Source: Hydrolagus colliei (Eukaryota). Taken from it: DNA of 64,000 nucleotides. A model generated the notes under the pieces. That model made no database searches, was not told the origin of the DNA, and was given only the letters and a program-made list of their open reading frames with translations. The stretch is from the NCBI GenBank assembly GCA_035084275.1, contig CM068757.1, positions 15,872,001-15,936,000 of the forward strand, read 5' to 3'. The position numbers and the translations under genes are program-made. How positions within the stretch are numbered: position 1 is the first letter of the stretch; every line of letters begins with the position of its first letter. Below are positions 34,201 through 61,167 of this stretch, in pieces.

Positions 34201-37200
34201 ATGTTGTCAACAGCATTCACCACAGAGCCATCGACAACCTTCTCTACAACCACAGGTAGTTGTGTTATTATCAGTCCTGGAGACTTTGGCAAACTTCACT
34301 TCAATACAGAGTCCTCGTAAAAATAGCCACTATGATAACTTATCCTCTATTTCTACTGAAATTTGATGCAATATATTTCTCATCATTGCATTCTAACACC
34401 AACAACTGCAACAGCAGCAGCCCCCACTACAATAACAGGTAAACAAAGAACAAATTCCAACTCTCCATTCCAGAACAAACATCTTATTAACTATTAACTT
34501 CCATTGTATATTTGCCATCCTGTAAGAATGCAGCCTCTATGATCATTACATAAACGATGTGTCCTGTCCCTTATGTCCTACTGGATTCACATGGACCACA
34601 TTTTTAAATGTACGTTAGATATTGGGTTTCTTTCTTCTTGTTATTGGTGATGGAGGGAAACAGCTGATATTAATCCTGCAGCAGTCACCAGCTTCTACCC
34701 ATTTTATGGTTAGTGCCTAGCAGACATCACTTCCAAATCTTGTTGAATGTATAACCACAGGAATTGTGCCACTAACTATTCAAAGGAGCCTCTTTGTGCG
34801 ATGTTGCGACTTGCTTCATTCATTCACTCATGGTTTTCGACTCAATTGTACATCCTTCTATTTACTGCAGGCGATGTCCAGAACACACCAGCAAGTAAGT
34901 GTTGTCTTCACACACTTTGTGCTACGGGGATCTAGGAATATATTAAACAGATGATTAATTTGATCTTGAGGTGTTTAGCTTTTGAAACTCGATGAATGAT
35001 TTAGCAGACTTGAACATCAGACATGTGCACAAGATCACATTTGCTAAGCAATGCCTCTTTCTAATATTGTCAGCAGCATTCCCCACAGAGTCTTCGACAA
35101 CATTCTCTACAACAACAGGTATTTGTGAAATTGTCAGTCTTGGTGTCTTCATCAATCTTTACTTTGATACAAAACAGCAACCATCATATGCTAACCTCGA
35201 ATTCTGTTGAAGGTTGATGCAATATATTTCTCCTCAACTTCTTACTTTCTAGCAACAACAACTAAAACATCAACAACCCCCTCTACGACATCAGGTAAAC
35301 AAAGAACAACTTCCAACTCTACATTTCCTGAGCAAACATCTACTTGATTGTCTTCACATTTCTCTATTACAGTCACAATCGCCCTCCTTTAACTCATTGT
35401 TATCTCATTCTCTACGGTTTCCACAGGATGCGCACGCATGTCTTCATCAACAACCACCACTGAAACTGGTGAGGAACAGCACATTTCTACAGACACAACT
35501 GTTACATATCACATAGAGAAATCAGGCTACAAGAATCCTGCCACTTGCTTTGGCCACAACAGCAGCCACTCTCCCAGTATCATTGCCAAATACTAGCTCA
35601 AACTTCAGCTTCAAGCAACTGAAAGAGGAGAATCATCTGAAGCATTTAGTTGCTCCACATTTATTCCTTCAAATTCTCACTTTAGAGCAACATCAGAAAA
35701 CACTCTGACGCAATGCTCAGCAACACTGTTCACTCCAATAACAGTTGTAGCCACATTAACTGCCTTTGATTCAACTACTCGAATTACCCGTGTACACTTT
35801 GTCCAGAGCAGTCTCCAATGCCCATTTTGCCATTGATACTATGTTGAATGGAAACACTTGAAGCTTCCTTCTGGAGGTTCCTAGACCAATCTTTCTCAAG
35901 AAACAGCGCAGCTGCTAATGACCAACACACCTGCACTGGCACAATGCCTCTATCGTGTATCAACAGCAGCAGTAAACCACACGACCAGCCACTCCATTTT
36001 GTTTCCCTGCTGTGACATTAATTGTGCCCATTCATGCTGCCAACTCCATTGAAAGACAAAAACTGGCTGAAAGAATCACATTCATTTCTGTGCTTTCCAA
36101 TCTTTCCAACTTTCTATTCCGACAGAAACATCAACAGCCACGACTTTGGTATCAGGTATAAACGAGCAGAAGCTTCTCTCTTCCCATTTACGGTACAATG
36201 TCCTCTTTGTCCACCTGTGATTCAAACTTCCATTAACTATTTGCCATCCTGTAAGAACACAGCCTCAATGAGCATTAGACAAACGATATGTCCTTTCCAC
36301 TATGTCCTGCAAGAATCACATAGACCATTTTTTCACGTGTAATTTAAATATTGGATTTCTTTCTTCTTGTTAGTGCTGCTGGAGGGAAACAGCCAATTTT
36401 ATCCCTGCAGCAGATACCAGCAGCGGACACCATTACCTGGTGACCGCTGGGCAAGAAACATTTCCAAATCTTGTTGAGGGCACAACCACAGGAATTGAGT
36501 CACTAGATATTGAAAGGAGACTCTTAGCATGATGCTGTAACTTGCCTCATTCATTCACGTTTTTCCACTCAATTGTAAACCCTTCGATGTACTGCAGACA
36601 TTGTCATGCACAGACCAATGAGAAGGTTGTGTGTTCACACAACTAGTGCTACCAGCATGTAGAAAGATATTAAACAGATGATTGTGTTCAACTTGAAGCA
36701 TTTTTGTTTCAAATTTGATGAGTGATTTAGGAGAACTGCACATTATACTTGTGCACCAGATCACTTTTGCTAAGCAGCGTCTCTTTTCCAATGCTGTCAG
36801 CAGCATTCACCACAGAGCCATCGACAACTTTCTCAACAACCACAGTTATTTGTGTTACTGTCAGTGCCTTTGTCAACCTTCACTTCAATACAATGTCCTC
36901 GTAAGAATAGACACTATGATAACTTAACCGCTATTTCTACTAAAGGTTGATGCAATATGTTTCTCATCATTACATTCTAGCACCAACAACAACTACTACA
37001 ACAGCAGCCCCCACTACAATAACAGGTAAACAAAGAACAAATTCCAACTCTCCATTCCAGAACAAACATCTTATTAACTATAAACTTCCATTGTATATTT
37101 GCCATCCTGTAAGAATGCAGCCTCTATGATCATTACACAAACGATGTGTCCTGTCCCTTATGTCCTACTGGATTCACATGGACCACATTTTTAAATGTAC

Positions 37201-40200
37201 GTTAGATATTGGGTTTCTTTCTTCTTGTTATTGGTGATGGAGGGAAACAGCTGATATTAATCTTGCAGCAGTCACCAGCTTCTACCCATTTTATGGTTAG
37301 TGCCCGGCAGACATCACTTCCAAATCTTGTTGAATGTATAACCACAGGAATTGTGCCACTAACTATTCAAAGGAGCCTCTTCGTGCGATGTTCCGACTTG
37401 CTTCATTCATTCACTCATGTTTTTCGACTCAATTGTACATCCTTCTATTTACTGCAGGCAGTGTCCGGAACACACCAGCAAGTAAGTGTTGTCTTCACAC
37501 ACCTTGTGCTACGGGGATCTACGAAGATATTAAACAGATGATTAATTTGATCTTGAGGGGTTTATCTTTTGAAACTCGATGAATGATTTAGCAGACTTGA
37601 ACATCAGACATGTGCACAAGATCACATTTGCTAAGCAATGCCTCTTATCTAATATTGTCAGCAGCATTCCCCACAGAGTCTTCGACAACATTCTCTACAA
37701 CAACAGGTATTTGTGAAATTGTCAGTCTTGGTGCCTTCATCAATCTTTACTTTGATACAAAACAGCAACCATCATATGCTAACCTCGAATTCTGTTGAAG
37801 GTTGATGCAATATATTTCTCCTCAACTTCTTACTTTCTAGCAACAACAACTAAAACATCAACAACCCCCTCTACGACAGCAGCTAAACAAAGAACAACTT
37901 CCAACTCTACATTTCCTGAGCAAACATCTACTTGATTGTCTTCACATTTCTCTATTACAGTCACAATCGCCCTCCTTTAACTCATTGTTATCTCATTCTC
38001 TACGGTTTCCACAGGATGCGCACGCATGTCTTCATCAACAACCACCACTGAAACTGGTGAGGAACAGCACATTTCTACAGACGCAACTGTTACATATCAC
38101 ATAGAGAAATCAGGCTACAAGAATCCTGCCATTGGCTTTGCCCAGAACAGCAGCCACTCTCCCAGTATCAATGCCAAACACTAGCTCAAACTTCAGCTTC
38201 AAGCAACTGAAAGAGGAGAATTATCTGAAGCATTCAGTCCGATTGCTCCACATTTATTCCTTCAAATTCTCACTTTAGAGAAACATCAGAAAACACTCTG
38301 ACACAATGCTCAGCAACACTCTTCACTCCAACAACAGTTGTAGCCACATTAACTGCCTTTCACTCAACTACTTGAATTACCCATGCACACTTTGTCCAGA
38401 GCAGTCTCCAATGCCCATTTTTCCATTGATACTATGTTGAATGGAAACACTTGAAGCTTGCTTCTGGAGGTTCCTGGACCAATCTTTCTCAAGAAGCAGC
38501 GCAGCTGCTAATGAACAACACACCTGGCACTGCCACATTGCCTCTATTGTGTATCAATAGCAGCAGTAAACCACACGACCAGCCACTCCATTTTGTTTCC
38601 CTGCTGTGACATTAATTGTGCCCATTCATGCTGCCAACTCCATTGAAAGACAAAAACTAGCTGGAAGAATCACATTCGTTTCTGTGCTTTCCAATCTTTC
38701 CAACTTTCTATTCCAACAGAAACATCAACAGCCACGACTTCGACATCAGGTATACAAAGAGCAGAAGCTTCTCTCCTCCCATTTACGGTGCAATATCCCC
38801 TTTGACCACCTGTGATTCAAACTTCCATTAACTATTTGCCATCCTGTAAGAATGTATCCTCTGTGAGCATTAGACAAATGAAATGTCCTTTCCCTTATGT
38901 CCAGCTGGAATCACACAGCACTTTTTCATACGTACTTTAGTTATTGGGTTTCTTTCTTCTTGTTAGTGCTGATGGAGGGAAACAGCCAATATTAACCTTG
39001 CAGCAGATACCAGCTTCTGCCCATTACCTGGTGATCGCAGGGCCAGAAACATTTCCAAATCTTGTTGAGGGCGTAACCACAGGAATTGTGTCGCGAGATA
39101 TTGAAAGGAGACTCTCAGCATGATGTTGTAACTTGACTCATTCATTCACATTTTTCCACTCAATTGTAAACCCTTCGATCTACTGCAAATATTGTTATGG
39201 ACAGAGCAATAAGAAAGGTGGCACTAGCACAGCTAGTGCTACCGGGATGTAGAAAGATATCAAACAGATGATTGAATTGAACTTCAAGCGGTTTTCTTTT
39301 GAAATTTGATGAGTGATTTAGAAGAACTGCACATTATTCTTGTGCACCAGATCATTTTTGCTAAGCAATCTCTCGTTTCCAATGTTGTCAGCAGCATTCA
39401 CCTCACAGGCATCGACAACCTTCTCTACAACCACGGGTATTTGTGTTATTGTCATTCTTGGTGCTTTCATTCAATACAGCGTCATCGTAAAAATAGCCAC
39501 AATGATAAATTAACCTCTATTGCTACTAATATTTGATGCAATATATTTCTCGTCAGACATGATAAATACCACTTTTTATTTTGCAGCACCAACAACTGCA
39601 ACATCAACAATACCCACAACAACAACAGGTAAACAAGGAACAACTTCCCACTCTCCATTCCAGAACAAACATCTACTTGATTGTCTTCACTTTTCTCTAT
39701 TAAAGTCACAATCGCGCTCTTCATTGTTATCTCTTTTCCTATTGTTTCTATTTGATGCGCACGCATGTCTTCATTCAACAACCACCACTGAAACTGGTGA
39801 GGAACAGCACATTTCCACAGACACAACTGTTACATATCACATAGAGAAATCAGGCTACAAGAATCCTGCCACTTGCTTTGGCCACAACAGCAGCCACTCT
39901 CCCAGTATCATTGCCAAACACTAGCTCAAACTTCAGCTTCAAGAGACTGAAAAAGGAGAATCATCTGAAGCATTCAGTCAGATTGCTCCACATTTATTCC
40001 TTCAAATTGTCACTTTAGAGAAACATCACAAAACACTCTGACACAATGCTCAGCAACATCCTTCACTCCAATAACAGTTGTAGCCACATTAACTGCCTTT
40101 GATTCAACTACTCGAATTACCCGTCCAGAGCATTACTTTGTCCAGAGCAGTCTCCAATGCCCATTTTGCCATTGATACTATGTTGAATGGAAACACTTGA

Positions 40201-43200
40201 GGCTTCCTTCTGGAGGTTCCTAGACCAATCTTTCTCAAGAAACAGCGCAGCTGCTAATGACCAACACACCTGCATTGGCACATTGCCTCTATCGTGTATC
40301 AACAGCAGCAGTAAACCACACGACCAGCCACTCCATTTTGTTTCCCTGCTGTGACATTAATTGTGCCCATTCATGCTGCCAACTCCATTGAAAGACAAAA
40401 ACTGGCTGAAAGAATCACATTCATTTCTGTGCTTTCCAATCTTTCCAACTTTCTATTCCGACAGAAACATCAACAGCCACGACTTTGATATCAGGTATAA
40501 ACGAGCAGAAGCTTCTCTCTTCCCATTTACGGTACAATGTCCTCTTTGTCCACCTGTGATTCAAACTTCCATTAACTATTTGCCATCCTGTAAGAACACA
40601 GCCTCAATGAGCATTAGACAAACGATATGTCCTTTCCACTATGTCCTGCAAGAATCACATAGACCATTTTTTCACGTGTAATTTAAATATTGGATTTCTT
40701 TCTTCTTGTTAGTGCTGCTGGAGGGAAACAGCCAATTTTATCCCTGCAGCAGATACCAGCAGCGGACACCATTACCTGGTGACCGCTGGGCAAGAAACAT
40801 TTCCAAATCTTGTTGAGGGCACAACCACAGGAATTGAGTCACTAGATATTGAAAGGAGACTCTTAGCATGATGCTGTAACTTGCCTCATTCATTCACGTT
40901 TTTCCACTCAATTGTAAACCCTTCGATGTACTGCAGACATTGTCATGCACAGACCAATGAGAAGGTTGTGTGTTCACACAACTAGTGCTACCAGCATGTA
41001 GAAAGATATTAAACAGATGATTGTGTTCAACTTGAAGCATTTTTGTTTCAAATTTGATGAGTGATTTAGGAGAACTGCACATTATACTTGTGCACCAGAT
41101 CACTTTTGCTAAGCAGCGTCTCTTTTCCAATGCTGTCAGCAGCATTCACCACAGAGCCATCGACAACTTTCTCAACAACCACAGTTATTTGTGTTACTGT
41201 CAGTGCCTTTGTCAACCTTCACTTCAATACAATGTCCTCGTAAGAATAGACACTATGATAACTTAACCGCTATTTCTACTAAAGGTTGATGCAATATGTT
41301 TCTCATCATTACATTCTAGCACCAACAACAACTACTACAACAGCAGCCCCCACTACAATAACAGGTAAACAAAGAACAAATTCCAACTCTCCATTCCAGA
41401 ACAAACATCTTATTAACTATAAACTTCCATTGTATATTTGCCATCCTGTAAGAATGCAGCCTCTATGATCATTACACAAACGATGTGTCCTGTCCCTTAT
41501 GTCCTACTGGATTCACATGGACCACATTTTTAAATGTACGTTAGATATTGGGTTTCTTTCTTCTTGTTATTGGTGATGGAGGGAAACAGCTGATATTAAT
41601 CTTGCAGCAGTCACCAGCTTCTACCCATTTTATGGTTAGTGCCCGGCAGACATCACTTCCAAATCTTGTTGAATGTATAACCACAGGAATTGTGCCACTA
41701 ACTATTCAAAGGAGCCTCTTCGTGCGATGTTCCGACTTGCTTCATTCATTCACTCATGTTTTTCGACTCAATTGTACATCCTTCTATTTACTGCAGGCAG
41801 TGTCCGGAACACACCAGCAAGTAAGTGTTGTCTTCACACACCTTGTGCTACGGGGATCTACGAAGATATTAAACAGATGATTAATTTGATCTTGAGGGGT
41901 TTATCTTTTGAAACTCGATGAATGATTTAGCAGACTTGAACATCAGACATGTGCACAAGATCACATTTGCTAAGCAATGCCTCTTATCTAATATTGTCAG
42001 CAGCATTCCCCACAGAGTCTTCGACAACATTCTCTACAACAACAGGTATTTGTGAAATTGTCAGTCTTGGTGCCTTCATCAATCTTTACTTTGATACAAA
42101 ACAGCAACCATCATATGCTAACCTCGAATTCTGTTGAAGGTTGATGCAATATATTTCTCCTCAACTTCTTACTTTCTAGCAACAACAACTAAAACATCAA
42201 CAACCCCCTCTACGACAGCAGCTAAACAAAGAACAACTTCCAACTCTACATTTCCTGAGCAAACATCTACTTGATTGTCTTCACATTTCTCTATTACAGT
42301 CACAATCGCCCTCCTTTAACTCATTGTTATCTCATTCTCTACGGTTTCCACAGGATGCGCACGCATGTCTTCATCAACAACCACCACTGAAACTGGTGAG
42401 GAACAGCACATTTCTACAGACGCAACTGTTACATATCACATAGAGAAATCAGGCTACAAGAATCCTGCCATTGGCTTTGCCCAGAACAGCAGCCACTCTC
42501 CCAGTATCAATGCCAAACACTAGCTCAAACTTCAGCTTCAAGCAACTGAAAGAGGAGAATTATCTGAAGCATTCAGTCCGATTGCTCCACATTTATTCCT
42601 TCAAATTCTCACTTTAGAGAAACATCAGAAAACACTCTGACACAATGCTCAGCAACACTCTTCACTCCAACAACAGTTGTAGCCACATTAACTGCCTTTC
42701 ACTCAACTACTTGAATTACCCATGCACACTTTGTCCAGAGCAGTCTCCAATGCCCATTTTTCCATTGATACTATGTTGAATGGAAACACTTGAAGCTTGC
42801 TTCTGGAGGTTCCTGGACCAATCTTTCTCAAGAAGCAGCGCAGCTGCTAATGAACAACACACCTGGCACTGCCACATTGCCTCTATTGTGTATCAATAGC
42901 AGCAGTAAACCACACGACCAGCCACTCCATTTTGTTTCCCTGCTGTGACATTAATTGTGCCCATTCATGCTGCCAACTCCATTGAAAGACAAAAACTAGC
43001 TGGAAGAATCACATTCGTTTCTGTGCTTTCCAATCTTTCCAACTTTCTATTCCAACAGAAACATCAACAGCCACGACTTCGACATCAGGTATACAAAGAG
43101 CAGAAGCTTCTCTCCTCCCATTTACGGTGCAATATCCCCTTTGACCACCTGTGATTCAAACTTCCATTAACTATTTGCCATCCTGTAAGAATGTATCCTC

Positions 43201-46200
43201 TGTGAGCATTAGACAAATGAAATGTCCTTTCCCTTATGTCCAGCTGGAATCACACAGCACTTTTTCATACGTACTTTAGTTATTGGGTTTCTTTCTTCTT
43301 GTTAGTGCTGATGGAGGGAAACAGCCAATATTAACCTTGCAGCAGATACCAGCTTCTGCCCATTACCTGGTGATCGCAGGGCCAGAAACATTTCCAAATC
43401 TTGTTGAGGGCGTAACCACAGGAATTGTGTCGCGAGATATTGAAAGGAGACTCTCAGCATGATGTTGTAACTTGACTCATTCATTCACATTTTTCCACTC
43501 AATTGTAAACCCTTCGATCTACTGCAAATATTGTTATGGACAGAGCAATAAGAAAGGTGGCACTAGCACAGCTAGTGCTACCGGGATGTAGAAAGATATC
43601 AAACAGATGATTGAATTGAACTTCAAGCGGTTTTCTTTTGAAATTTGATGAGTGATTTAGAAGAACTGCACATTATTCTTGTGCACCAGATCATTTTTGC
43701 TAAGCAATCTCTCGTTTCCAATGTTGTCAGCAGCATTCACCTCACAGGCATCGACAACCTTCTCTACAACCACGGGTATTTGTGTTATTGTCATTCTTGG
43801 TGCTTTCATTCAATACAGCGTCATCGTAAAAATAGCCACAATGATAAATTAACCTCTATTGCTACTAATATTTGATGCAATATATTTCTCGTCAGACATG
43901 ATAAATACCACTTTTTATTTTGCAGCACCAACAACTGCAACATCAACAATACCCACAACAACAACAGGTAAACAAGGAACAACTTCCCACTCTCCATTCC
44001 AGAACAAACATCTACTTGATTGTCTTCACTTTTCTCTATTAAAGTCACAATCGCGCTCTTCATTGTTATCTCTTTTCCTATTGTTTCTATTTGATGCGCA
44101 CGCATGTCTTCATTCAACAACCACCACTGAAACTGGTGAGGAACAGCACATTTCCACAGACACAACTGTTACATATCACATAGAGAAATCAGGCTACAAG
44201 AATCCTGCCACTTGCTTTGGCCACAACAGCAGCCACTCTCCCAGTATCATTGCCAAACACTAGCTCAAACTTCAGCTTCAAGAGACTGAAAAAGGAGAAT
44301 CATCTGAAGCATTCAGTCAGATTGCTCCACATTTATTCCTTCAAATTGTCACTTTAGAGAAACATCACAAAACACTCTGACACAATGCTCAGCAACATCC
44401 TTCACTCCAATAACAGTTGTAGCCACATTAACTGCCTTTGATTCAACTACTCGAATTACCCGTCCAGAGCATTACTTTGTCCAGAGCAGTCTCCAATGCC
44501 CATTTTGCCATTGATACTATGTTGAATGGAAACACTTGAGGCTTCCTTCTGGAGGTTCCTAGACCAATCTTTCTCAAGAAACAGCGCAGCTGCTAATGAC
44601 CAACACACCTGCATTGGCACATTGCCTCTATCGTGTATCAACAGCAGCAGTAAACCACACGACCAGCCACTCCATTTTGTTTCCCTGCTGTGACATTAAT
44701 TGTGCCCATTCATGCTGCCAACTCCATTGAAAGACAAAAACTGGCTGAAAGAATCACATTCATTTCTGTGCTTTCCAATCTTTCCAACTTTCTATTCCGA
44801 CAGAAACATCAACAGCCACGACTTTGATATCAGGTATAAACGAGCAGAAGCTTCTCTCTTCCCATTTACGGTACAATGTCCTCTTTGTCCACCTGTGATT
44901 CAAACTTCCATTAACTATTTGCCATCCTGTAAGAACACAGCCTCAATGAGCATTAGACAAACGATATGTCCTTTCCACTATGTCCTGCAAGAATCACATA
45001 GACCATTTTTTCACGTGTAATTTAAATATTGGATTTCTTTCTTCTTGTTAGTGCTGCTGGAGGGAAACAGCCAATTTTATCCCTGCAGCAGATACCAGCT
45101 TCTACCCATTACCTGGTGACCGCTGGGCAAGAAACATTTCCAAATCTTGTTGAGGGCACAACCACAGGAATTGAGTCACTAGATATTGAAAGGAGACTCT
45201 TAGCATGATGCTGTAACTTGCCTCATTCATTCACGTTTTTCCACTCAATTGTAAACCCTTCAATGTACTGCAGACATTGTCATGCACAGACCAATGAGAA
45301 GGTTGTGTGTTCACACAGCTAGTGCTACCAGCATGTAGAAAGATATTAAACAGATGATTGTGTTCAACTTGAAGCATTTTTTTTTCAAATTTGATGAGTG
45401 ATTTAGGAGAACTGCACATTATACTTGTGCATCAGATCACTTTTGCTAAGCAGCGTCTCTTTTCCAATGCTGTCAGCAGCATTCACCACAGAGCCATCGA
45501 CAACTTTCTCAACAACCACAGTTATTTGTGTTACTGTCAGTGCCTTTGTCAACCTTCACTTCAATACAATGTCCTCGTAAGAATAGCCACTATGATAACT
45601 TAACCTCTATTTCTACTGAAAGTTGATGCAATATGTTTCTCATCATTACATTCTAGCACCAACAACAACTACTACAACAGCAGCCCCCACTACAATAACA
45701 GGTAAACAAAGAACAAATTCCAACTCTCCATTCCAGAACAAACATCTTATTAACTATAAACTTCCATTGTATATTTGCCATCCTGTAAGAATGCAGCCTC
45801 TATGATCATTACACAAACGATGTGTCCTGTCCCTTATGTCCTACTGGATTCACATGGACCACATTTTTAAATGTACGTTAGATATTGGGTTTCTTTCTTC
45901 TTGTTATTGGTGATGGAGGGAAACAGCTGATATTAATCCTGCAGCAGTCACCAGCTTCTACCCATTTTATGGTTAGTGCCCGGCAGACATCACTTCCAAA
46001 TCTTGTTGAATGTATAACCACAGGAATTGTGCCACTAACTATTCAAAGGAGCCTCTTCGTGCGATGTTCCGACTTGCTTCATTCATTCACTCATGTTTTT
46101 CGACTCAATTGTACATCCTTCTATTTACTGCAGGCAGTGTCCGGAACACAGCACCAAGTAAGTGTTGTCTTCACACACCTTGTGCTACGGGGATCTAGGA

Positions 46201-49200
46201 AGGTATTAAACAGATGATTAATTTGATCTTGAGGGGTTTATCTTTTGAAACTCGATGAATGATTTAGCAGACTTGAACATCAGACATGTGCACAAGATCA
46301 CATTTGCTAAGCAATGCCTCTTATCTAATATTGTCAGCAGCATTCCCCACAGAGTCTTCGACAACATTCTCTACAACAACAGGTATTTGTGAAATTGTCA
46401 GTCTTGGTGTCTTCATCAATCTTTACTTTGATACAAAACAGCAACTATCATATGCTAACCTCGAATTCTGTTGAAGGTTGATGCAATATATTTATCCTCA
46501 ACCTCTTACTTTCTAGCACCAACAACTAAAACATCAACAACCCCCTCTACGACAGCAGCTAAACAAAGAACAACTTCCAACTCTACATTTCCTGAGCAAA
46601 CATCTACTTGATTGTCTTCACATTTCTCTATTACAGTCACAATCGCCCTCCTTTAACTCATTGTTATCTCATTCTCTACGATTTTCACAGGATGCGCACG
46701 CATGTCTTCATCAACAACCACCACTGAAACTGGTGAGGAACAGCACATTTCTACAGACGCAACTGTTACATATCACATAGAGAAATCAGGCTACAAGAAT
46801 CCTGCCATTGGCTTTGCCCAGAACAGCAGCCACTCTCCCAGTATCAATGCCAAACACTAGCTCAAACTTCAGCTTCAAGCAACTGAAAGAGGAGAATCAT
46901 CTGAAGCATTCAGTCCGATTGCTCCACATTGATTCCTTCAAATTCTCACTTTAGAGAAACATCAGAAAACACTCTGACACAATGCTCAGCAACACTGTTC
47001 ACTCCAACAACAGTTGTAGCCACATTAACTGCCTTTCACTCAACTACTTGAATTACCCATGCACACTTTGTCCAGAGCAGTCTCCAATGCCCATTTTTCC
47101 ATTGATACTATGTTGAATGGAAACACTTGAAGCTTGCTTCTGGAGATTCCTGGAAGAATCCTTTTCAAGAAGCAGCACAGCTGCTAATGAACAACACACC
47201 TGGCACTGCCACATTGCCTCTATTGTGTATCAATAGCAGCAGTAAACCACATCACCAGCCACTCCATTTTGTTTCACTGCTGTGACATTAATTGTGCCCA
47301 TTCATGCTGCTAACTCCATTGAAAGATAAACACTGGCTGAAAGAATCACATTCCTTTCTGTGCTTTCCAATCTTTCCAACTTTCTATTCCAACAGAAACA
47401 TCAACAGCCACGACTTCGACATCAGGTACACAAAGAGCAGAAGCTTCTCTCCTCCCATTTGTGGTGCAAACTTCCATTATCTATTTGCCATCCTGTAAGA
47501 ATGTAGCCCCTATGAGCATTAGACTAATGATATGACCTTTCCCTTATGTCCTGTTGGAATCACATGGACCACTTTTTTAGATATTGGGTTTCTTTCTTCT
47601 TGTTAGTGCTGATGGAGTTAAACAGCCAATTTTAACCCTGTGGTAGATACCAGCTTCTACCCGTTACCTGATAACCACTGTGCCATAAACATTTCCAAAT
47701 CTTGTTGCGGGCATAACCACAGGAATTGTGCCAATAGACATTGAAAGGAGACTCTTAGCATGATGCTGTAACTTGCCTCATTCATTTACGTTTTTCCACT
47801 CAATTGTAAAACCTTCGATGTACTGCAGACATTGTCATGGAAACACCAATAAGAAAGTTGTGTATTCACACAGCTAGCACTACCAGGATGTAGAACGATA
47901 TCAAACAGATAATTCAATTGAACTTGAAGGGGTTTTCTTTTGAAATTTGATGAGTGATTTAGGAGAACTGCACATTATTCTTGTGCACCAGATCACTTTT
48001 GCTAAGCAATGTCTCTTTTCCAATGTTGTCAGCAGAATTCACCACAGAGCCATCGACAACCTTCTCTACAACCACAGGTATTTGTGTTATTGTCAGTCCT
48101 GGTGCCTTCGTCAACCTTCAATTCAAAACAGTGTCCTCGTAAATATAGCCACTATGATATCTTAACCACTATTGCTACTGAAAGTTGATGCAATATATTA
48201 AACAGATGATTGAATTGAACTGTGTGATATCTCTGGGACTACAATTATCACACATGTTCACGCTGCAATGTTCTGGGAAACGACTGCACACATCATGTGA
48301 TTTATTTACATTTATTTCCACGGTCACTAGATGGCGCTATCACGGCTCCTCCCTCCTTAATGAAGAAATTATGAAAAAGTTACAATTACTGACATTCAAA
48401 ACACGATGCTATGTACAATTGTTTTTCTACATATGTACAATTTATAAATACATACGTACAATTTATGTATATTATCATGTTCAAACTGTGACACATCCAA
48501 TGAAAATTCAAACTTGACTTCTGGTTTCCTACTTTCCCTGTCCAAAAGTTTTAGGACTCATGGTAGCACTCGGACTTTTAGAACTCATGGTAACACTCGG
48601 ACTTGCCATGTGTCCAGTCTGGTATTCATCTTGACTTTCACTCCTAGTCTCCAGTTACTCAGTCAGGCTCTTGACTATCACCTGGAACTAAACCCTCACC
48701 TTCATTCACACTTGAATTCTGGTTTTCTGTTAAGTCCTCTGTTACCATTACTGACTTGTTCATTGGTCTAAAACTATTTGGTTCATTAGATTTATCCATT
48801 TCTCTCCACTCTTCCGGTACTTGTGTAGGTAAGATGTGATCAATATGGACAAATCTGAGTTTGCCACTTTCAAACATCCTGACCAAATAGGTGCGCGGTC
48901 CACATACTTTCACTAATCTTCCTGGTACCCACTTTACCCATTTGTGATGATGGTTCTTCACTTTAACTTTTTTATTTATCTCCATCTTTCTGTCTTTCAC
49001 CCTTACTCCAGCATGGTTCTCTCTCTGCCTCTCCTGTTTTCCATCTACCATTTGTGCTAAATTGGGATACAACAATGAAAATCTTGTTCTCGGGTGTCTT
49101 TTTAGGAACACGTCAGCCGGTGTTCTGCCTGTAGTGGTGTGAAGTGTCTTACGATACGTTATCAGAAAGTTGGCTGGTTTGTGAGGCAATGATAATTGAC

Positions 49201-52200
49201 TTTGGGGTTGCATCTCGCATTTGCTAACCTAGCGTGCGTTTGACAATTTGCACATGGCGCTCCGAAGCACCATTCAAAGCTGGATGGTATGCAGTGTGCT
49301 TCACACCATTCTTTTCCATGCATTGCGCGAACTCTTCTGAACAGAACTGTGGTCCATTGTCAGACACGATTTCCTCTGGAAATCCATATGAAGCAAACGA
49401 CCCTCTAACAATATCCAGTTTTGCTAGATATTGTTGTGTTCATCGGAAACACCTCAACCCACTTGGAATGACAATGTATCACAATGAACAACTACTATCC
49501 ATCTAGATCAGCAAAATCTATCTGTAACCTTTGCCACACTCTGGCTGGCCATTTCCAGGACCGTAGTGGTACTGTTAGTGGACTCCTTCCAACCGACTCA
49601 CATACACTACACTGTTTTACTGTGTTTTCAATGTATTTATCCAACCCTGGCCACCATAAGTAGTTCTAGCTAGACTCTTGGTCAGACACATCCCTCGGTG
49701 TTGATCATGAAGATCACCGAAAAACTGTTCTCTGTACCTTTCAGGGATAACAACTCTAGCTCCCCACATGACACATCCTTGGTCATTTGACAATTCATGT
49801 CTCCTAACAAAGTATGGCCTAATTTCTTCTTCTGTCTCAGTTATATGACTAGGCCACCCACTCACAATATAGTCATGCACCTTGGATAAAACCCTGTCCC
49901 TACGAGTTGTCTTGCTGATGTCACTTGATGTGACTGGCAGCTCCTCAATATGGGAAAAATAGAACACATCTTCCCTGTTGGATTTCATTTCTGATGCTAA
50001 GGGTAACTTCGACATTGCATCGGCATTACCATGGTCTGCTGACCTACGATATTGTAAGTCATACTGGTATGCTGACAAGATCAATGAACATCTTTGCATT
50101 CTGGCTGCTGCTAGAGTAGGTACCTGTGATTTTGGATTTAGGATTGCTGTCAAAGGTTTATGGTCTGTTTCAATGATGAATTTGCGACCATACAGTATTT
50201 GTGGAATCTCCTAGCTCCAAAAATCAAGGCCAAAGCTTCTCTCTCTATTTGGGCGTAGTTTTTCTCACGACTACTCAGGGTTCTAGAAGCGAACGCCCCT
50301 GTTTCGAATGCATCAGAGATAACTGCACCAACCCCGTATGGGGGGGCGTCACATGCTAGGCTTGATGGTCTTTGTGACATCATAGTGTACCAGCATTGTA
50401 CCATCTATTAGATGTTTTTTACACGACTTGAAAGCCTGGTCACATTCACGTGTCCATTTACATGGCACATCTTTCTTCAAAAGCTCATCCGAGGGGTGTA
50501 TAAAGGTTGACAAATTTGGAATGAATTTTCCATAATAATTCAACAATCCCAAGAATGATCGTAGCTCAGATGTGTTTCTGGGAATGGGCGCGTTCCTGAT
50601 CGCATTGACCTTACTCTGAGTTGGGTGCAACCCATCTTTGTCTACCTTGAGCCCTAGGTACTCTAAAGACTCTTTAAACATCTCACATTTGTGAGCCTTG
50701 ACGCATACTTGGAGTTTCTCTAACCTTTGTTACACCATGTGTAGCCTTTCGTCATCAACCTGCCTATTTGGCGCAGAGATGACTATGTCATCAAGTTAGC
50801 ATATTACCCCATCGATTCCCTCTAGAATCTGAGTCATGAACCCTTGGAAAATTCCTGGGCTTGACGCAACGCCAAATGGTAGCCTATTGTATTGATACAG
50901 GCCCATATGAGTGTTGATAGTCAAGTACGCCTTTGACTTCTCATCTAGCTCTAACTGTTAATAGACTTTTGACAAGTCCATTTTAGAACATACTTTACCA
51001 CCTACCAATGTGTTGAACAAATCTTCTACGTTTGGTAACGTGTCAGGTGGACTACACTCCAGAACTCGATTCACTGTTACCTTGTAGTCCCCACAGATTC
51101 TGATACTACCGTCAGATTTTGGAACTACAACAATGGAAGTAGTCCAATTACTTTGTTGTACTTTACTGATAATGTTCTCCTTTTCCAGTCTTTTCAGTTC
51201 TTTTTCTACTTTTTCTCTCATTGCGTATGGCACTGGGCGTGGCTTATAGTGCCTTGTACGTGGGCCTTGCTTCACCTTGCACTCCTAAACTTGCTTTGTA
51301 TCCGCTGATGGGTGCACCGGATTCACTGAACACCGTTGAATGCTTTTTTTCCCTCTCTTCCTGTGTTGTGAACGAGATTTGCACAGGGAAAATTTCTTGC
51401 CAATCTAATTTCAGCGAGTTCATCCAATTTCTACCAAGTAATGCTGGTTTTTCTCACTTCACCACAAGAATTGGCAAATCTGCACATTGATCCTTGTATT
51501 TAACTGGAACACACACTCTACCCAAAACTGGGATGATCTCTCCTCCATAGTTGCGCAGCTCGACCCTTGCTGTTTGTAGCTTATTTTTGCTCAACTTTTC
51601 TCGGTGCAGTTTTTCAGACACCACACTGACTGCTGCTCCAGTATCAACTTCCATGATTACTGGGACTCCATCCAATGTTACTTGGACCTTGATGCTATGC
51701 AATTTGCTACTGGATGCTTTTGTGTTGTAGATCATGTTGATCTCCACTGGCTCCTCAGAGTCCTCACTCTCCTGGTGTCGCTCAACCGTATGCAGAAACT
51801 GACGTCTTTTCTTGACCGCATTCGTCCGCTTCGACTTGAAACAAGCCTTTGCAAGATGCCCAGTCTTATGGCACGAATATCACTCCACTTTCGTCAAAAG
51901 GCAAGATTGTGCTGGATGAGAACCCAGACATCGATAGCATGACTTTGAACTCGTCCCGCTACTCTTCCCTCGTGGTCGATTCACAAGTGCTTTGAATTTC
52001 ACTTTGCACACCTGCAGCTTGTTGATCTCCCCCACTGTTAGGCAATAGCTTGCTGGAACTTCTTTTGAATCTCTCTCAGCCATGTCCATAGATAAGGCAG
52101 TTTTGCATGCTAACTCAAATGTTAGCTGTGACATTGTCATTAATTTGCTTTGGATACGGTCGCTCTTCAATCTGCACACAAACCTATCTCGTAATGCAAG

Positions 52201-55200
52201 GTCCTGGAAATCTCCAAAATTGCAGTGTATCGACAGCTTTTTCAACCCTACGAAAAAACTGCCAAAGTTTTCCTCTGGTAATTGACATCTGGTACCAAAT
52301 CGGTAACTCTCTGCAATCTCTAATGGCTTTGGGTCATCGTGTTCTGTAAGCTTTTCAAGGATGTCCTTCAATGGGGTGTCCTTAGGCCTAGTTGCGGTTA
52401 ACAAATTCTTCACTGTTTCATACAGATCGGGACCCACTTCTGTCAGAAAGATTGCTCTCATTCTTTCTTGCACTGCTGTATTTACACTTCCAGAATTATC
52501 TTCAGCAGCTTCAATTTCAACAATATTATTGGCAGCAAAGAACATCTCCAAACGCTCAATCTAAGCACTAAACATTTCCCGGCTTTGTTGAAACTCACCC
52601 AATTGTCCGATGTATCCGATGGGAGTCTTCATTTGGGGATTTTTTTTATCAGTACCACCACACGTGAACACAAACCTTACTGGATTTGTAGCTCTCAATC
52701 AAAATGAAAGTATTCACAGACCTCAAGGCACTTTGTAGAGACCTTCTCCTACAAACAGACATAGCTAGGGAATCCACTATCCCATCCTCATCGCCAATTT
52801 GTGATATATCTGGGACTACAAGTATCAGAAACGTTCAGGCTGCAATGTTATGGAAAACAACTGCACATATCATGTGGTTTATTTACATTTCTATACACTG
52901 GTCAGCAGATGGCACTCTCACAAACCTGAAGTTTATTTTGAAATTTGATGATGCTTTAGGAGAACTGCACATTATACTTGTGCACCAGATCATTTTTGCT
53001 AAGCAATCTCTCTTTTCCAATGTTGTCAACAGCATTCACCACAGAGCCATCGACAACCTTCTCTACAACCACAGGTAGTTGTGTTATTATCAGTCCTGGA
53101 AACTTTGGCAAACTTCACTTCAATACAGAGTCCTCGTAAAAATAGCCACTATGATAACTTATCCTCTATTTCTACTGAAATTTGATGCAATATATTTCTC
53201 ATCATTGCATTCTAACACCAACAACTGCAACAGCAGCAGCCCCCACTACAATAACAGGTAAACAAAGAACAAATTCCAACTCTCCATTCCAGAACAAACA
53301 TCTTATTAACTATAAACTTCCATTGTATATTTGCCATCCTGTAAGAATGCAGCCTCTATGATCATTACACAAACGATGTGTCCTGTCCCTCATGTCCTAC
53401 TGGATTCACATGGACCACATTTTTAAATGTACGTTAGATATTGGGTTTCTTTCTTCTTGTTATTGGTGATGGAGGGAAACAGCTGATATTAATCCTGCAG
53501 CAGTCACCAGCTTCTACCCATTTTATGGTTAGTGCCCGGCAGACATCACTTCCAAATCTTGTTGAATGTATAACCACAGGAATTGTGCCACTAACTATTC
53601 AAAGGAGCCTCTTAGTGCTATGTTGCGACTTGCTTCATTCATTCACTCACGTTTTTCGACTCAATTGTACATCCTTCTATTTACTGCAGGCGATGTCCAG
53701 GACTCACCACCAAGTAAGTGTTGTCTTCACACACCTTGTGCTACGGGGATGTAGGAAGATATTAAACAGATGATTAATTTGATCTTGAGGGGTTTATCAT
53801 TTGAAACTCGATGAATGATTTAGCAGACTTGAACATCAGACATGTGCACAAGATCACATTTGCTAAGCAATGCCTCTTATCTAATATTGTCAGCAGCATT
53901 CCCCACAGAGTCTTCGACAACATTCTCTACAACAACAGGTATTTGTGAAATTGTCAGTCTTGGTGCCTTCATCAATCTTTACTTTGATACAAAACAGCAA
54001 CCATCATATGCTAACCTCGAATTCTGTTGAAGGTTGATGCAATATATTTCTCCTCAACTTCTTACTTTCTAGCACCAACAACTACAACATCAACAATCCC
54101 CAGTACACCAGGTAAGCAAAGAACTTCCAACTCTGCATTTGACCCGCTTTGTACAATTTAACATCGATCGTCTTTCCTCCACCACACCCAATCAATGATC
54201 CGCTCTACCTTCCCTCACCTCCACAATATTGCCTGACTCCACCATTACCTCATCCCTGATACCGCTGAAACTCTCATTCATGTGTTGCTGACATCCAGGC
54301 TCACTATGCCGACGTCTTGCTTGTCGACCTTCCTAATTCATCCATCCATAGTTTGCAGATAATCCAGAACTCTGCAGTTTTCAGAGTGTCCTCTCCAATC
54401 TAAGCTTTGTGATCCCATCTCCCTCATCTTCACCTGACTCTGTTTACTCCCCATCATCTAGAGAATCCAATTGAATATCCTGCTCTTCACATTCAATTCC
54501 CTCCATGGCCTCGGCCCACCCTATATTTGCAACCTTATCTGCCTGCCCCCTCCGCTCAGGAGGCTCCGGCCTGTTCCACATTCCCCAACTCACTCTGCCA
54601 TTGGCGGGCGAGCCTTCTGACACTCTGCTCCCAACCTCTGTAACTCCAACCCGCATTTCCTCCACCTTGCCCCTTCCCTGGCTTCCTTCAAATCCCGCCT
54701 CAAGACTCTCCTCTTTGACTGCCCCATCAATCACCCCTAAATCCCCCACTTCCACTCCACCCTCCCTGATCCTGACCCCATCTTATGTCTGAAACAATGA
54801 CTGGCCAGCACCTTGGACATCCTCCTAACGTGAAAGGCGATTTATAAGTCTATATTATTATTGTTGTAATCGGAATATTTCAATCGGGGAATGAATCGGG
54901 GCCCGGGTTTTGTGACCTATGTGCCCAGCCCTCAATGATAACTAATGTCCAGTTAATGCAGCTTCCTCTCTGGTTCAATGTGATCGAATGCTATAGAAAA
55001 TGACTTCATGTTATTATTAATGTGTTTTCCCTTTCCAGTGCCCTGTGCAATGGGTGCACACAACACGACATTGACCTTCCAGGGTTGTGCAGTGAACGTC
55101 ACAGTCAGTCATTGTGAAGGATATTGCTATTCATACAATGAGTAAGAGAGCCATTGGTGGGGACATTACAAATTTTGCAAAACTATTTGCCAAACATTGC

Positions 55201-56145
55201 AGGGAAATTTGACAAATTTTGCTCCAACAAAAAATTGCAGGGAGCTGATCCACCAAACACCAGTATGGTTTGCCTTGCTTCAGGGTATCCCTGACTCCTG
55301 TTACTTGGGACAGCTACGGCACACAGACACAGAGAGATAGACTCAGAGAGAGAGAGAGACTCAAGACAGATAGAGAGAAACAGACATAGACAGACAGGCA
55401 GGGAGGCAGGCAGGCAGACATACTCAGAGATAGATGCAGACTCAGAGAGAGAGAGAGAGACTCAGATAGACAGAGAGAGAGAGAGACTCAGATAGACAGA
55501 GAGAGAGAGAGAGACTCAGATAGACAGAGAGAGAGAGAGAGACTCAGAGAGAGATAGACTCCGACAGAGAGAGACAAAGAGAGACACAGACAGAGAGATA
55601 GAGAGAGAGTGACAGAGAGAGACTCAGAAAGAGAAAGAGACTGAGAAGGGGCAGAGAGAGACTCAGAGAGAGAGTGAGAGAAACTCAGACAGAGAGAGGC
55701 TCAGACAGAGAGACTCAGACAGACTCAGACAGAGAGACTCAGACAGAGAGACTCAGACAGAGAGACTCAGACACGCAGCCACCCAGAGACGCACTCAGAC
55801 ACACTCGGGGGCATGATTTTCTATTCGTCCATGTCATCAGCCAAATAGAGAGAGATCTGGAGAATGATGAGAGAGAGCTGGGTAGTAAATCACCCCCCAA
55901 AAGATGAGGATCAGGGCTCCCCCACAGCAATAACCAAAGCGGTTTGTTAACATTGCAGATTTGATTCCCGGACAAAGCAAAGCATAATCACCTGTAGGTG
56001 CTGTGTGGCGCAGAAAAAAAGCATCAAGAAAACTCGTCTGTTGTGCCACGGCAACATGGAAACACTTGTGTACTATCAGCCCAAAAGTTGTGAATGTCAA
56101 CAGCAAGTCTGCAGTGCTCCACCTTCAAGCAGCCATTACAGTTAA
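4172..56145 (+). CDS. MUC6: 3' portion of a spliced gel-forming mucin gene, MUC6-like: micro-exon-encoded PTS domain joined directly to a C-terminal cystine knot (5' VWD region lies upstream of the window)
   Basis: About 73 AG..GT-bounded phase 1-1 Thr/Ser/Pro-rich micro-exons, then two exons that splice in frame to an 11-Cys cystine knot and TAA. A PTS joined to the knot with no VWD4/VWC in between is the MUC6 architecture. TLTFQGCAVNVTVSHCEGYCYS resembles the human MUC6 knot as I recall it (EITFKGCMANVTVTRCEGACIS). The mucin call is firm; orthology is not search-verified. Confidence 0.8.
5033..5077 (+). CDS. Representative type A micro-exon, 45 nt: (A)AFPTESSTTFSTTT
   Basis: atattgtcag|CAG...ACAG|gtattt; recurs at about 9373, 13688, 18003, 22308, 24894, 27480, 35074, 37662, 42001, 46338, 53894. 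Confidence 0.7.
5212..5253 (+). pseudogene. Pseudo-exon (type B) with lost donor
   Basis: Ends CAGCAG|ctaaac where paralogues have |gtaaac; 7 such copies. Confidence 0.65.
5386..5427 (+). CDS. Representative type C micro-exon, 42 nt: (G)CARMSSSTTTTET
   Basis: ggtttccacag|GATG...AACTG|gtgagg; good splice sites, phase 1-1; about 13 intact copies. Confidence 0.65.
6091..6120 (+). CDS. Representative type D micro-exon, 30 nt: (E)TSTATTSTS
   Basis: tttctattccaacag|AAAC...ATCAG|gtatac; variant (E)TSTATTLIS at 7829-7858; about 17 copies. Confidence 0.68.
6763..6807 (+). CDS. Type A variant micro-exon, 45 nt: (A)AFTSQASTTFSTTT
   Basis: gttgtcag|CAG...CACGG|gtattt; 6 copies. Confidence 0.6.
6958..6999 (+). 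CDS. Type B variant micro-exon, 42 nt: (A)PTTATSTIPTTTT
   Basis: ctttttattttgcag|CACC...ACAG|gtaaac; strong polypyrimidine tract. Confidence 0.78.
8513..8557 (+). pseudogene. Pseudo-exon (type A) with lost donor
   Basis: Ends CCACAG|ttattt where paralogues have |gtattt; 9 such copies. Confidence 0.65.
8693..8737 (+). CDS. Type B variant micro-exon, 45 nt: (A)PTTTTTTAAPTTIT
   Basis: attacattctag|CACC...TAACAG|gtaaac; one per short unit, 9 intact copies. Confidence 0.75.
11277..11318 (+). CDS. Type B micro-exon, 42 nt: (A)TTTKTSTTPSTTA
   Basis: ttactttctag|CAAC...CAGCAG|gtaaac; intact-donor version of the exon that is donor-dead at 5212-5253. Confidence 0.75.
29200..29244 (+). CDS. Type A variant micro-exon, 45 nt: (A)EFTTEPSTTFSTTT
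   Basis: gttgtcag|CAGAATT...CCACAG|gtattt; last exon before Gypsy copy 2, with a twin before copy 3 (about 48033-48077). Confidence 0.6.
29390..29511 (-). repeat. 3' LTR of Gypsy copy 2 (122 bp)
   Basis: Aligns to the 5' LTR with about 20 differences; adjacent polypurine tract (aaggagggaggagc on minus, 29512-29525). Confidence 0.9.
33960..33977 (-). promoter_or_regulatory. Primer-binding site, tRNA-Ser(GCT)-type
   Basis: Plus strand atcccatcctcgtcgcca, 3 nt inside the 5' LTR, equals the 3' end of vertebrate tRNA-Ser(GCT) plus CCA (recalled). Copy 3 has one mismatch and copy 1 has two. Confidence 0.8.
34104..48222 (+). repeat. Exon-intron tandem array 2 (6 long, 4 short, 1 truncated unit)
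   Basis: Markers at 37610, 41949, 46286 (periods 4339, 4337); same unit types as array 1. Confidence 0.95.
48223..52922 (-). mobile_element. Full-length decayed Ty3/Gypsy (Mag-like) element, copy 3 (4700 bp)
   Basis: LTRs 48223-48344 and 52800-52922; same flanks and lesions as copies 1 and 2. Confidence 0.96.
53894..53938 (+). CDS. Type A PTS micro-exon, 45 nt: (A)AFPTESSTTFSTTT
   Basis: ttgtcag|CAGCATT...ACAACAG|gtattt; phase 1-1. Confidence 0.7.
54073..54111 (+). CDS. Last PTS micro-exon, 39 nt: (A)PTTTTSTIPSTP
   Basis: ttactttctag|CACC...CACCAG|gtaagc; near-consensus donor; phase 1-1, in frame with the cystine-knot exon. Confidence 0.88.
54200..54868 (+). mobile_element. L2-clade LINE 3' fragment (intronic)
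   Basis: Degenerate HL.NIA.L..YL...AETLIH...TSRL and IQNSA ORF2 C-terminus; 3' tail cgtgaaaggcgatttataag followed by (tat/tgt)n. Confidence 0.8.
55039..55141 (+). CDS. MUC6: Mucin cystine-knot exon 1: (V)PCAMGAHNTTLTFQGCAVNVTVSHCEGYCYSYN(E)
   Basis: Acceptor ttttccctttccag|TG, donor GA|gtaaga; 103 nt, phase 1 to phase 2; CxGxC knot motif (CEGYC); two N-glycosylation sequons (NTT, NVT). Confidence 0.92.
55320..55805. repeat. AG-rich micro/minisatellite in the last mucin intron
   Basis: (ga)n with gactcaga/cagacaga motifs. Confidence 0.9.
55959..56145 (+). CDS. MUC6: Terminal mucin exon: (E)FDSRTKQSIITCRCCVAQKKSIKKTRLLCHGNMETLVYYQPKSCECQQQVCSAPPSSSHYS*
   Basis: Acceptor ttaacattgcag|A matches phase 2 of the previous exon. 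CxCC and CxC motifs complete 11 Cys. Stop TAA at 56143-56145. Confidence 0.92.
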
Positions 56146-56238
56146 GCAAACGGCCTGTGACGCCCCGCCACCCTCTACACCAGCAATGTTGCCGTTTTCT
56201 ACAGGATGAATTTGCGGTTTTTCCAAAACTTCATCGGG

Positions 56239-56244
56239 ATTAAA
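56239..56244 (+). terminator. Probable polyadenylation signal (ATTAAA) of the mucin gene
   Basis: Variant hexamer about 94 nt after the stop, followed by a T/GT-rich tract at about 56276-56345. Confidence 0.55.
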
Positions 56245-58365: not shown

Positions 58366-58374
58366 GCGTCATTA

Positions 58375-61133: not shown

Positions 61134-61167
<34 letters not shown>

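What the first reader, a model, noticed from the sequence alone, without database searches (positions are those of the whole stretch)
55039..56244. Intact two-exon 11-Cys cystine knot directly after the PTS, absent from the ORF track
Seen: the spliced peptide VPCAMGAHNTTLTFQGCAVNVTVSHCEGYCYSYNE-FDSRTKQSIITCRCCVAQKKSIKKTRLLCHGNMETLVYYQPKSCECQQQVCSAPPSSSHYS* has all 11 Cys of the vWF/mucin dimerisation knot, matching splice phases and a poly(A) signal. This argues that the gene is functional. Known: absence of VWD4/VWC between PTS and knot marks MUC6, which is generally reported missing in teleosts but present in cartilaginous fish.
Basis: partly seen in the sequence, partly recalled or inferred. 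Interest (0 to 1): 0.7.

Follow-up and report, generated by a model that had tools for sequence, protein, structure and literature searches.

The report
Micro-exon mucin with MUC6-type knot
This is the tail end of a mucus-protein gene, probably of the stomach-mucin (MUC6) kind; its linking knot is ordinary, but its sugar-bearing stretch is split into more than eighty tiny repeated exons rather than the one huge exon seen in humans.

Summary
Observation confirmed. Exons 55039-55141 and 55959-56145 splice in phase to an intact 11-Cys mucin/vWF C-terminal cystine knot (1 such join in the window, 0 of 150 shuffles). It follows a PTS exon directly, with no VWD/VWC exon between. It is missing from the ORF list only because the exons are short.

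MUC6 is the best but unproven call (about 0.6). The first knot exon has the length (103 nt), phases and 5' boundary of human MUC6 exon 32, unlike MUC2 (127 nt). Its N-terminal half shares 13 of 40 non-Cys residues with MUC6, against 5-9 for three other mucins (by eye). The C-terminal half leans to MUC2. No tree was possible, no AP2A2 was seen, and other mucins also lack VWD4.

The more interesting feature lies upstream. The PTS is 125 micro-exon copies (82 splice-intact, 24-45 nt, all phase 1-1, about 1036 aa) in a 50-kb exon-intron array carrying a co-duplicated LTR element. Human MUC6 has one PTS exon; multi-exon PTS is known from Xenopus MucXS and chicken Muc13. New variant of a known kind; interest 0.35.

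The parts
55039..55141 (+). Knot exon a, 103 nt, phase 1 in / phase 2 out; Cys1-Cys4; two N-glycosylation sequons
   Evidence: same length, phases and 5' boundary as human MUC6 exon 32 (read by eye)
55959..56145 (+). Knot exon b coding part, Cys5-Cys11, short Ser/Pro tail, stop TAA 56143-45
56239..56244 (+). Candidate poly(A) signal ATTAAA, followed by a TG-rich tract at 56284-56343
   Evidence: use not shown
54073..54111 (+). Last PTS micro-exon (39 nt, class B), strongest donor of the array, splices in phase 1 to knot exon a
54112..55038 (+). 927-nt intron between PTS and knot; about 54170-54868 is a LINE-like fragment (72.6% to 57280-58001, inverted); no VWC/VWD exon
   Evidence: RVT_1 match next to the second copy at 58073-58543
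55142..55958 (+). 817-nt intron inside the knot, AG-rich microsatellite 55323-55773; same position (Cys4 + 4 codons + 2 nt) as in human MUC2 and MUC6
4169..54111 (+). PTS domain as an exon-intron tandem array: 125 micro-exon copies in five classes (A 45 nt, B 45/42/39, C 24, D 42, E 30); 82 with AG, GT, 3n length and no stop (3108 nt, about 1036 aa, 66% P+T+S), 43 without; units of about 870 and 1735 bp grouped into 2.6, 4.3, 18.8 and 30 kb repeats; continues off the left end of the window
29390..34102 (-). Broken LTR-retrotransposon-like element in a PTS intron (about 122-bp LTRs, 18 of 121 positions different); middle of three copies
   Evidence: (RT_RNaseH_2 E 3.7e-26)
48223..52921 (-). Third copy of the LTR element, 37 substitutions in 4698 positions from the middle copy
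1..4060 (-). First copy of the LTR element, cut by the window start

Best explanation
The window holds the 3' part of a secreted gel-forming mucin gene, most likely of the Muc6 lineage. Shown from sequence: symmetric (phase 1-1) micro-exons splice into one open Thr/Ser-rich frame that runs straight into a two-exon, 11-Cys knot and stops. Inferred from the vWF/MUC2 knot: Cys1-7, 2-8, 3-9 and 4-10 pair within a chain, while Cys5/Cys6 (crosswise) and Cys11-Cys11' join two chains tail to tail in the ER; the PTS is O-glycosylated; unseen N-terminal VWD units polymerise the dimers into a gel. Inferred for the array: it grew by unequal crossing-over of whole exon-intron units. Because every exon is phase-symmetric, a copy can lose a splice site (43 of 125 copies fail the test at the mapped ends) or be skipped without breaking the frame to the knot.
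For: Knot intact and non-random; disulfide map from vWF numbering (PMC8626975 passages). No VWD4/VWC between PTS and knot; PMC10082768 names MUC6 as the one mucin in its comparison that lacks both (passages; it does not mention MUC19). Human MUC6: PTS exon 31 is followed by exactly two exons; exon 32 is 103 nt, phase 1/2, one whole codon before Cys1, and exon 33 opens with Phe, all as here. Human MUC2 exon 48 is 127 nt with nine whole codons before Cys1. By-eye non-Cys identities between Cys1 and Cys5: MUC6 13 of 40, MucXS 9 of 40 (one gap), MUC5B 7 of 40, MUC2 5 of 40; one sequon sits at the same place as in MUC6. No CysD match, like MUC6. 82 of the 83 copies with AG and GT at the mapped ends are 3n and open, against 8 of 21 intron indel events that are 3n. 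The 82 exons plus knot give 1131 codons and one terminal stop; the other two frames have 18 and 37 stops.
Against: The C-terminal half leans to MUC2: identities between Cys5 and Cys11 are MUC2 9 of 33, MucXS 4, MUC6 3, MUC5B 3. The Cys8-Cys9 loop is 14 residues against 19 in human MUC6 and 15 in MUC2 and vWF. Over the whole knot the lead is small (MUC6 16 of 73, MUC2 14, MucXS 13, MUC5B 10), and MUC19, MUC5AC and otogelin knots were not compared. Human MUC6 has a single 12.3-kb PTS exon. No AP2A2 domain in 96 of 131 downstream frames scanned (35 low-complexity frames left out). No relative was retrieved. Micro-exons are not consistently more conserved than flanking intron (intact C exons 12% against 3%, B 15% against 15-19%). 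Donors of classes A and E are weak (scores -0.1 to 2.1). Classes A, B and D were first found with a filter for 3n length and PTS content, so frame symmetry is partly built in. No transcript evidence; N-terminus and organism are not in view.
Confidence: 0.6

Rival explanations
1. A gel-forming mucin of another lineage (MucXS/otogelin-like, or a Muc2/Muc5 paralogue) that lost VWD4-VWC independently. It would dimerise by the same knot, but would not be MUC6.
For: MucXS is listed as VWD units, a multi-exon central domain and a C-terminal knot (PMC5789918); its knot is second best in the N-terminal half (9 of 40). Six Xenopus Muc5 genes and zebrafish Muc5.3 lack VWD4. The second half of the knot is closest to MUC2 (9 of 33).
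Against: The MucXS central domain is made of 39 multi-Cys repeats, whereas this PTS is 1.3% Cys. MucXS spacing differs (15 between Cys4 and Cys5, 2 before Cys11). The MUC2 knot exon is 127 nt and carries a linker that is absent here. No CysD match.
Confidence: 0.22
2. A Muc19/spiggin-lineage mucin that has lost its C-terminal VWC. Muc19 lacks VWD4, and its repeats are recalled to be encoded exon by exon.
For: Muc19 lacks VWD4 and C. milii has three paralogues (PMC4948705). Exon-per-repeat organisation of Muc19 is recalled, not read: the source (Culp 2004) appeared only in a reference list.
Against: Bovine, porcine and human MUC19 are recalled to carry VWC before the knot, and none is found here. 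The exon boundary and N-terminal half match MUC6. No Muc19 knot sequence was available, so this rival is untested rather than excluded.
Confidence: 0.1
3. A recently silenced or partial copy (pseudogene, or a segment without the VWD N-terminus), with array size partly an assembly product.
For: 43 of 125 micro-exon copies fail the splice or frame test; three LTR-element copies and LINE fragments sit in introns. Two pairs of 1.6-kb units are identical, so copy number may depend on the assembly. 13 class C copies keep the acceptor next to weak out-of-frame GT sites. No N-terminus in the window.
Against: All 11 Cys, both knot introns, the stop and a poly(A)-like hexamer are intact. Dead copies fall into a few shared haplotypes that were amplified, not independent decay. 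Most units differ by 0.3-11%, and the LTR copies by 0.7-1.0% with transitions about equal to or above transversions, which argues for real duplications. 6 of the 43 have an in-frame AG 3 to 24 nt inside.
Confidence: 0.08

Closest known systems
Human MUC6 (33 exons; PMC6269512 passages and supplement parts 42 and 46 of 52)
   Same: PTS followed directly by a two-exon 11-Cys knot; 103-nt first knot exon with the same phases and 5' boundary; same internal intron; Phe after it; shared sequon position; no CysD, VWD4 or VWC; 13 of 40 non-Cys identities in Cys1-Cys5.
   Different: PTS is one 12,294-bp exon with 507-bp repeats, here 82 or more exons of 24-45 nt; Cys8-Cys9 loop 19 against 14; only 3 of 33 identities in Cys5-Cys11; single Cys residues in this PTS.
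Callorhinchus milii Muc6 (two paralogues; PMC4948705)
   Same: Reported Muc6 in a cartilaginous fish, so a non-teleost fish Muc6 is already known.
   Different: Classified on VWD1-3; its knot and PTS exon structure were not in the passages or supplement parts that I saw, so no comparison was possible.
Xenopus tropicalis MucXS/Otogl (PMC5789918)
   Same: Gel-forming mucin with a multi-exon central domain and a C-terminal knot, no fourth VWD among the listed domains; 13 of 73 non-Cys identities.
   Different: Central domain is dominated by 39 multi-Cys repeats; knot spacing differs at two loops; exon sizes not seen.
Human MUC2 / MUC5B / vWF CTCK (PMC10082768 supplement Fig. S5; PDB 7qcu)
   Same: 11-Cys knot with near-identical spacing; MUC2 shares the internal intron position and 9 of 33 identities in the second half.
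   Different: VWD4 and several VWC domains lie between PTS and knot; MUC2 first knot exon is 127 nt; vWF has 14 and 10 residues in the first two loops.
Chicken Muc13 (PMC1552070 passages)
   Same: PTS encoded by many exons, one repeat per exon; alternative splicing proposed as length control.
   Different: Transmembrane SEA-domain mucin without a cystine knot; one repeat unit rather than five exon classes in higher-order units.

Membership tests
vWF/mucin C-terminal cystine knot (CTCK) | 11 Cys with CxGxC, CxCC, CxC and a last Cys four residues on, at vWF-like spacing | tested here: met
   Spacing 13,8,3,16,1,0,13,14,1,4 against vWF numbering; 0 of 150 shuffles
vWF/mucin C-terminal cystine knot (CTCK) | Knot at the C-terminus, two exons with the intron after Cys4 | tested here: met
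   Stop ten residues after Cys11; intron at Cys4 + 4 codons + 2 nt as in MUC2 and MUC6
vWF/mucin C-terminal cystine knot (CTCK) | Knot fold and disulfide-linked dimer | not testable with these tools
   Only single exons could be folded; the exon b model (pLDDT 59.9) gave no PDB match at E 0.001 or better
Gel-forming mucin | Long PTS domain upstream of the knot | tested here: met
   82 exons, about 1036 aa, Thr 44.0%, Ser 16.4%, Pro 6.0%; the splicing is predicted
Gel-forming mucin | Signal peptide and three N-terminal VWD-C8-TIL units | not testable with these tools
   Outside the window: 1-54111 is wholly array and LTR copies
Muc6 | No VWD4-C8-TIL and no VWC between PTS and knot | tested here: met
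   necessary but not exclusive to Muc6
Muc6 | No CysD domains in the PTS | tested here: met
   No Mucin2_WxxW or other Cys-domain match in 87 frames from 4061-8700 and 52922-55038; the rest of the array is homologous to these units; the PTS beyond the window is unseen
Muc6 | Groups with Muc6 in a VWD1-3 (or knot) phylogeny, the criterion used by Lang et al. 2016 | not testable with these tools
   No relatives retrieved. By-eye counts only: MUC6 16 of 73, MUC2 14, MucXS 13, MUC5B 10
Muc6 | MUC6-type knot exon (103 nt, one whole codon before Cys1) | tested here: met
   one control only (MUC2, 127 nt); not an established diagnostic
Muc6 | Synteny: head-to-head with Muc2, AP2A2 downstream | tested here: inconclusive
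   No adaptin or Tollip Pfam match in 96 of 131 frames of 56147-63729; region is repeat-filled and ends at a gap (63730-63929); 5' side not in window
Muc6 (mammalian gene structure) | PTS encoded by one large exon | tested here: not met
   125 micro-exon copies against single exon 31; described for human, not known to define the family in fishes
MucXS/Otogl | Central domain of multi-Cys repeats alternating with PTS | tested here: not met
   Cys is 1.3% of the PTS, one per class D exon, against 39 Cys-rich repeats
Muc19/spiggin | Knot sequence, VWD tree and synteny of Muc19 | not tested
   No Muc19 sequence was obtained; VWC before the knot is recalled for Muc19 and is absent here
Muc2/Muc5 | VWD4 and VWC domains after the PTS, CysD within it | tested here: not met
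   exceptions without VWD4 exist in Xenopus and zebrafish

The most novel reading that the evidence does not exclude
A Muc6-lineage mucin of an early-branching fish whose PTS is assembled from 82 or more phase-symmetric micro-exons, so that chain length, glycan density and the number of lone cysteines (13 intact class D exons, each with one Cys, identical in all 13) are set by splice-site loss and exon skipping rather than by repeats within one exon. The single giant PTS exon of mammalian MUC6 would then be derived, or this architecture a separate invention in Muc6, and the lone Cys could cross-link chains in place of CysD.
Probability: 0.3. Interest if true: 0.55.

Novelty: new variant of a known kind. 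Interest (0 to 1): 0.35.

Why it matters
The finding as given, an intact knot right after the PTS, is the known Muc6-type ending, and Muc6 in cartilaginous fish has been in print since 2016 (PMC4948705). What could matter is the gene structure. A 50-kb array that is only 6% coding has no long ORF, so ORF-based PTS detection and annotation would miss it and mucin counts in such genomes may be off. It also offers a test of the idea, raised for chicken Muc13 (PMC1552070), that multi-exon PTS domains are ancestral and allow length control by splicing. I found no paper on a micro-exon PTS in a Muc6 or in a shark mucin in searches, which cover open-licence PubMed Central and bioRxiv only.

Tried and rejected
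Homologue searches found nothing usable: exon b against longer proteins, exon a with six intronic codons in front, and both exons pooled in one alignment (4 candidates, 0 scored). The HMMER search of 1.84 billion representatives with exon b gave 4 hits; all are multi-stretch repeat proteins with no cystine-knot or mucin family and were dropped. Atlas hits for exon a (best 0.82) are generic Cys_knot/DAN clusters. A single-sequence fold of exon b (pLDDT 59.9) and its PDB fold search were uninformative; half a knot is not expected to fold. No complex prediction was run. Rfam 0 hits and ARAGORN 0 genes. A hidden VWC exon in 54112-55038 was rejected. The 660-nt D-to-E interval as a long coding PTS exon was rejected: 5-11 stops per frame and 23-29% PTS in the 5 of 17 copies printed. 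A test for exons being more conserved than flanking intron gave mixed results, and the pairs are not independent. Weak Pfam matches below cut-off downstream (DCA16, BTBD16_C and others) were taken as chance. Contig collections were not searched: the genome collection is bacterial and archaeal, and metagenome and viral contigs stayed unchecked. The supplement of PMC4948705 gave truncated Muc2/Muc5 alignments and no C. milii Muc6 sequence in the parts seen; the knot alignment in PMC5789918 Fig. S2 is a picture and was not seen; PMC1552070 had no readable supplement. These unseen files may bear on the family call. The organism was not identified; a cartilaginous fish is plausible from recalled repeat types only.

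Full report
1. The observation. vWF has 14,10,3,16,1,0,13,15,1,4 (from the residue numbers in PMC8626975, passages), so each Cys maps one to one. A relaxed knot pattern tested over two-exon GT/AG joins matches once in the window, at this place, never on the minus strand, and in 0 of 150 shuffles. ATTAAA lies at 56239-44 with a TG-rich tract after it. Per-exon database scores are weak but point the same way (Pfam Cys_knot E 0.029; norrin and MUC2 in PDB; Atlas 0.92). The ORF list misses it because the exons are 34 and 62 codons.

2. Nothing lies between PTS and knot. The 927-nt intron is mostly a LINE-like fragment with an inverted 72.6% copy at 57280-58001. The only AG..GT candidate with three Cys is 178 nt, out of phase and inside that fragment. 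None of 87 plus-strand frames from one higher-order unit and from 52922-55038 matches VWD, VWC, C8, TIL or CysD.

3. The PTS is a micro-exon array. Positions 1-54111 are entirely covered by self-homology. Mapping by homology finds 125 copies of five exon classes: A (45 nt), B (45, 42, 39), C (24), D (42) and E (30). 82 have AG, GT, a 3n length and no stop; all are phase 1-1. Spliced in order with the knot they give 1131 codons and one terminal stop; the PTS part is Thr 44.0%, Ser 16.4%, Ala 11.3%, Pro 6.0%, Cys 1.3%, and the other two frames have 18 and 37 stops. Only 6% of the array is coding. The order is built from CAB and DECAB units of about 870 and 1735 bp, grouped into 2.6, 4.3, 18.8 and 30 kb repeats. 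43 copies fail the test through a lost AG or GT or a frame-changing length. They belong to a few shared haplotypes, and 6 of them have an in-frame AG a few bases inside. Of the 83 copies with AG and GT at the mapped ends, 82 are 3n and open, while 8 of 21 intron indel events are 3n. Cautions: classes A, B and D were first found with a 3n and PTS filter, C and E by eye; donors of A and E are weak and 13 class C copies keep an acceptor near weak out-of-frame GT sites; exons are not consistently more conserved than flanking intron; no transcript was seen. A broken LTR element (RT_RNaseH_2; LTRs 18 of 121 different) sits in the array three times, the copies differing by 0.7-1.0%: it inserted long before the block that holds it was duplicated. 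Two pairs of 1.6-kb units are identical, so exact copy number may depend on the assembly.

4. Which mucin. No relative could be retrieved, so no tree was built. I compared by eye with sequences printed in paper supplements. Human MUC6 (PMC6269512, supplement part 46 of 52): the PTS exon is followed by two exons; exon 32 is 103 nt, phase 1 in and phase 2 out, with one whole codon before Cys1, and exon 33 opens with Phe. All of this is matched here. Human MUC2 (part 42) has the same internal intron but a 127-nt exon with nine whole codons before Cys1. Non-Cys identities between Cys1 and Cys5 are MUC6 13 of 40, Xenopus MucXS 9 (one gap; PMC5789918 SI), MUC5B 7 and MUC2 5 (PMC10082768 supplement). 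Between Cys5 and Cys11 the order changes: MUC2 9 of 33, MucXS 4, MUC6 3, MUC5B 3, and the Cys8-Cys9 loop is 14 residues against 19 in MUC6 and 15 in MUC2. Totals are 16, 14, 13 and 10 of 73: a lean, not a proof. MUC19, MUC5AC and otogelin were not compared. Synteny is open: no adaptin or Tollip domain in 96 of 131 downstream frames, and the region ends at a 200-N gap. I put Muc6 at 0.6, another lineage without VWD4 at 0.22, Muc19 at 0.1 and a dead or partial copy at 0.08.

5. How it most likely works. Shown: frame, splice sites, Cys pattern, absence of intervening domains. Inferred from vWF and MUC2: four intrachain disulfides (Cys1-7, 2-8, 3-9, 4-10) and three interchain ones (Cys5-6', Cys6-5', Cys11-11') make a tail-to-tail dimer in the ER; the PTS is O-glycosylated; VWD units outside the window polymerise the dimers. 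Inferred for the gene: unequal crossing-over of exon-intron units expands the PTS, and phase symmetry lets dead or skipped exons drop out without touching the knot. Speculative: the lone Cys in each of 13 intact class D exons cross-links chains.

6. Known and new. Muc6 in Callorhinchus, gar and coelacanth, and its absence in teleosts, are published (PMC4948705: abstract, passages, section 7 part 1, supplement part 1 and one search). [quoted passage not shown] Multi-exon PTS is known for chicken and zebrafish Muc13 (PMC1552070 passages) and MucXS (passages), and is recalled for Muc19. Passages of PMC3056801, PMC2180178, PMC10707392 and the TOGA2 preprint added nothing on this point. Searches showed no report of a micro-exon PTS in Muc6 or in a shark mucin; subscription papers are not covered.

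7. Verdict. The finding is real and, as stated, ordinary: a Muc6-type C-terminus. The gene structure upstream makes it a new variant of a known kind. Interest 0.35; 0.55 if Muc6 identity and splicing-controlled PTS length are confirmed (probability about 0.3).

Noticed in passing
window 5386-5427 and 12 further intact copies: Class D micro-exon carries a single Cys and is identical in all 13 intact copies, while its flanks differ by 1-3%; possible unpaired cysteines in the PTS.
   Followed up: partly
window class C exons, e.g. 4829-4852, 22104-22127, 53690-53713: Intact class C exons differ from each other by 12% on average while their flanking intron differs by about 3%; few independent haplotypes, cause unexplained.
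   Followed up: no
window 1-4060, 29390-34102, 48223-52921 (- strand): Broken LTR-retrotransposon-like element copied three times with the mucin array; LTRs 15% apart, copies about 1% apart. Gypsy type is a guess from recall; integrase not tested.
   Followed up: partly
window 5428-6090 and 16 homologous D-to-E intervals: About 660-nt intron with C skew and short PTS-like stretches, possibly the decayed remnant of a longer PTS exon; now full of stops.
   Followed up: partly
window class A exons, e.g. 5033-5077: Tandem CAG CAG acceptors allow 45- or 42-nt forms; three copies that lost the first AG keep the second.
   Followed up: partly
window 56914-57164: 59-bp tandem repeat, 4.3 copies, with relatives at 62653-62755 and 63344-63389; recalled as a repeat type common in cartilaginous-fish genomes, not tested.
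   Followed up: no
window 59000-59075: tRNA-like SINE head seen by eye; not called by ARAGORN or Rfam.
   Followed up: no
window 57280-58543 and 60117-60710: LINE fragments with RVT_1 matches; long CT/AG low-complexity tract at 61435-62180 and a 200-N gap at 63730-63929.
   Followed up: partly
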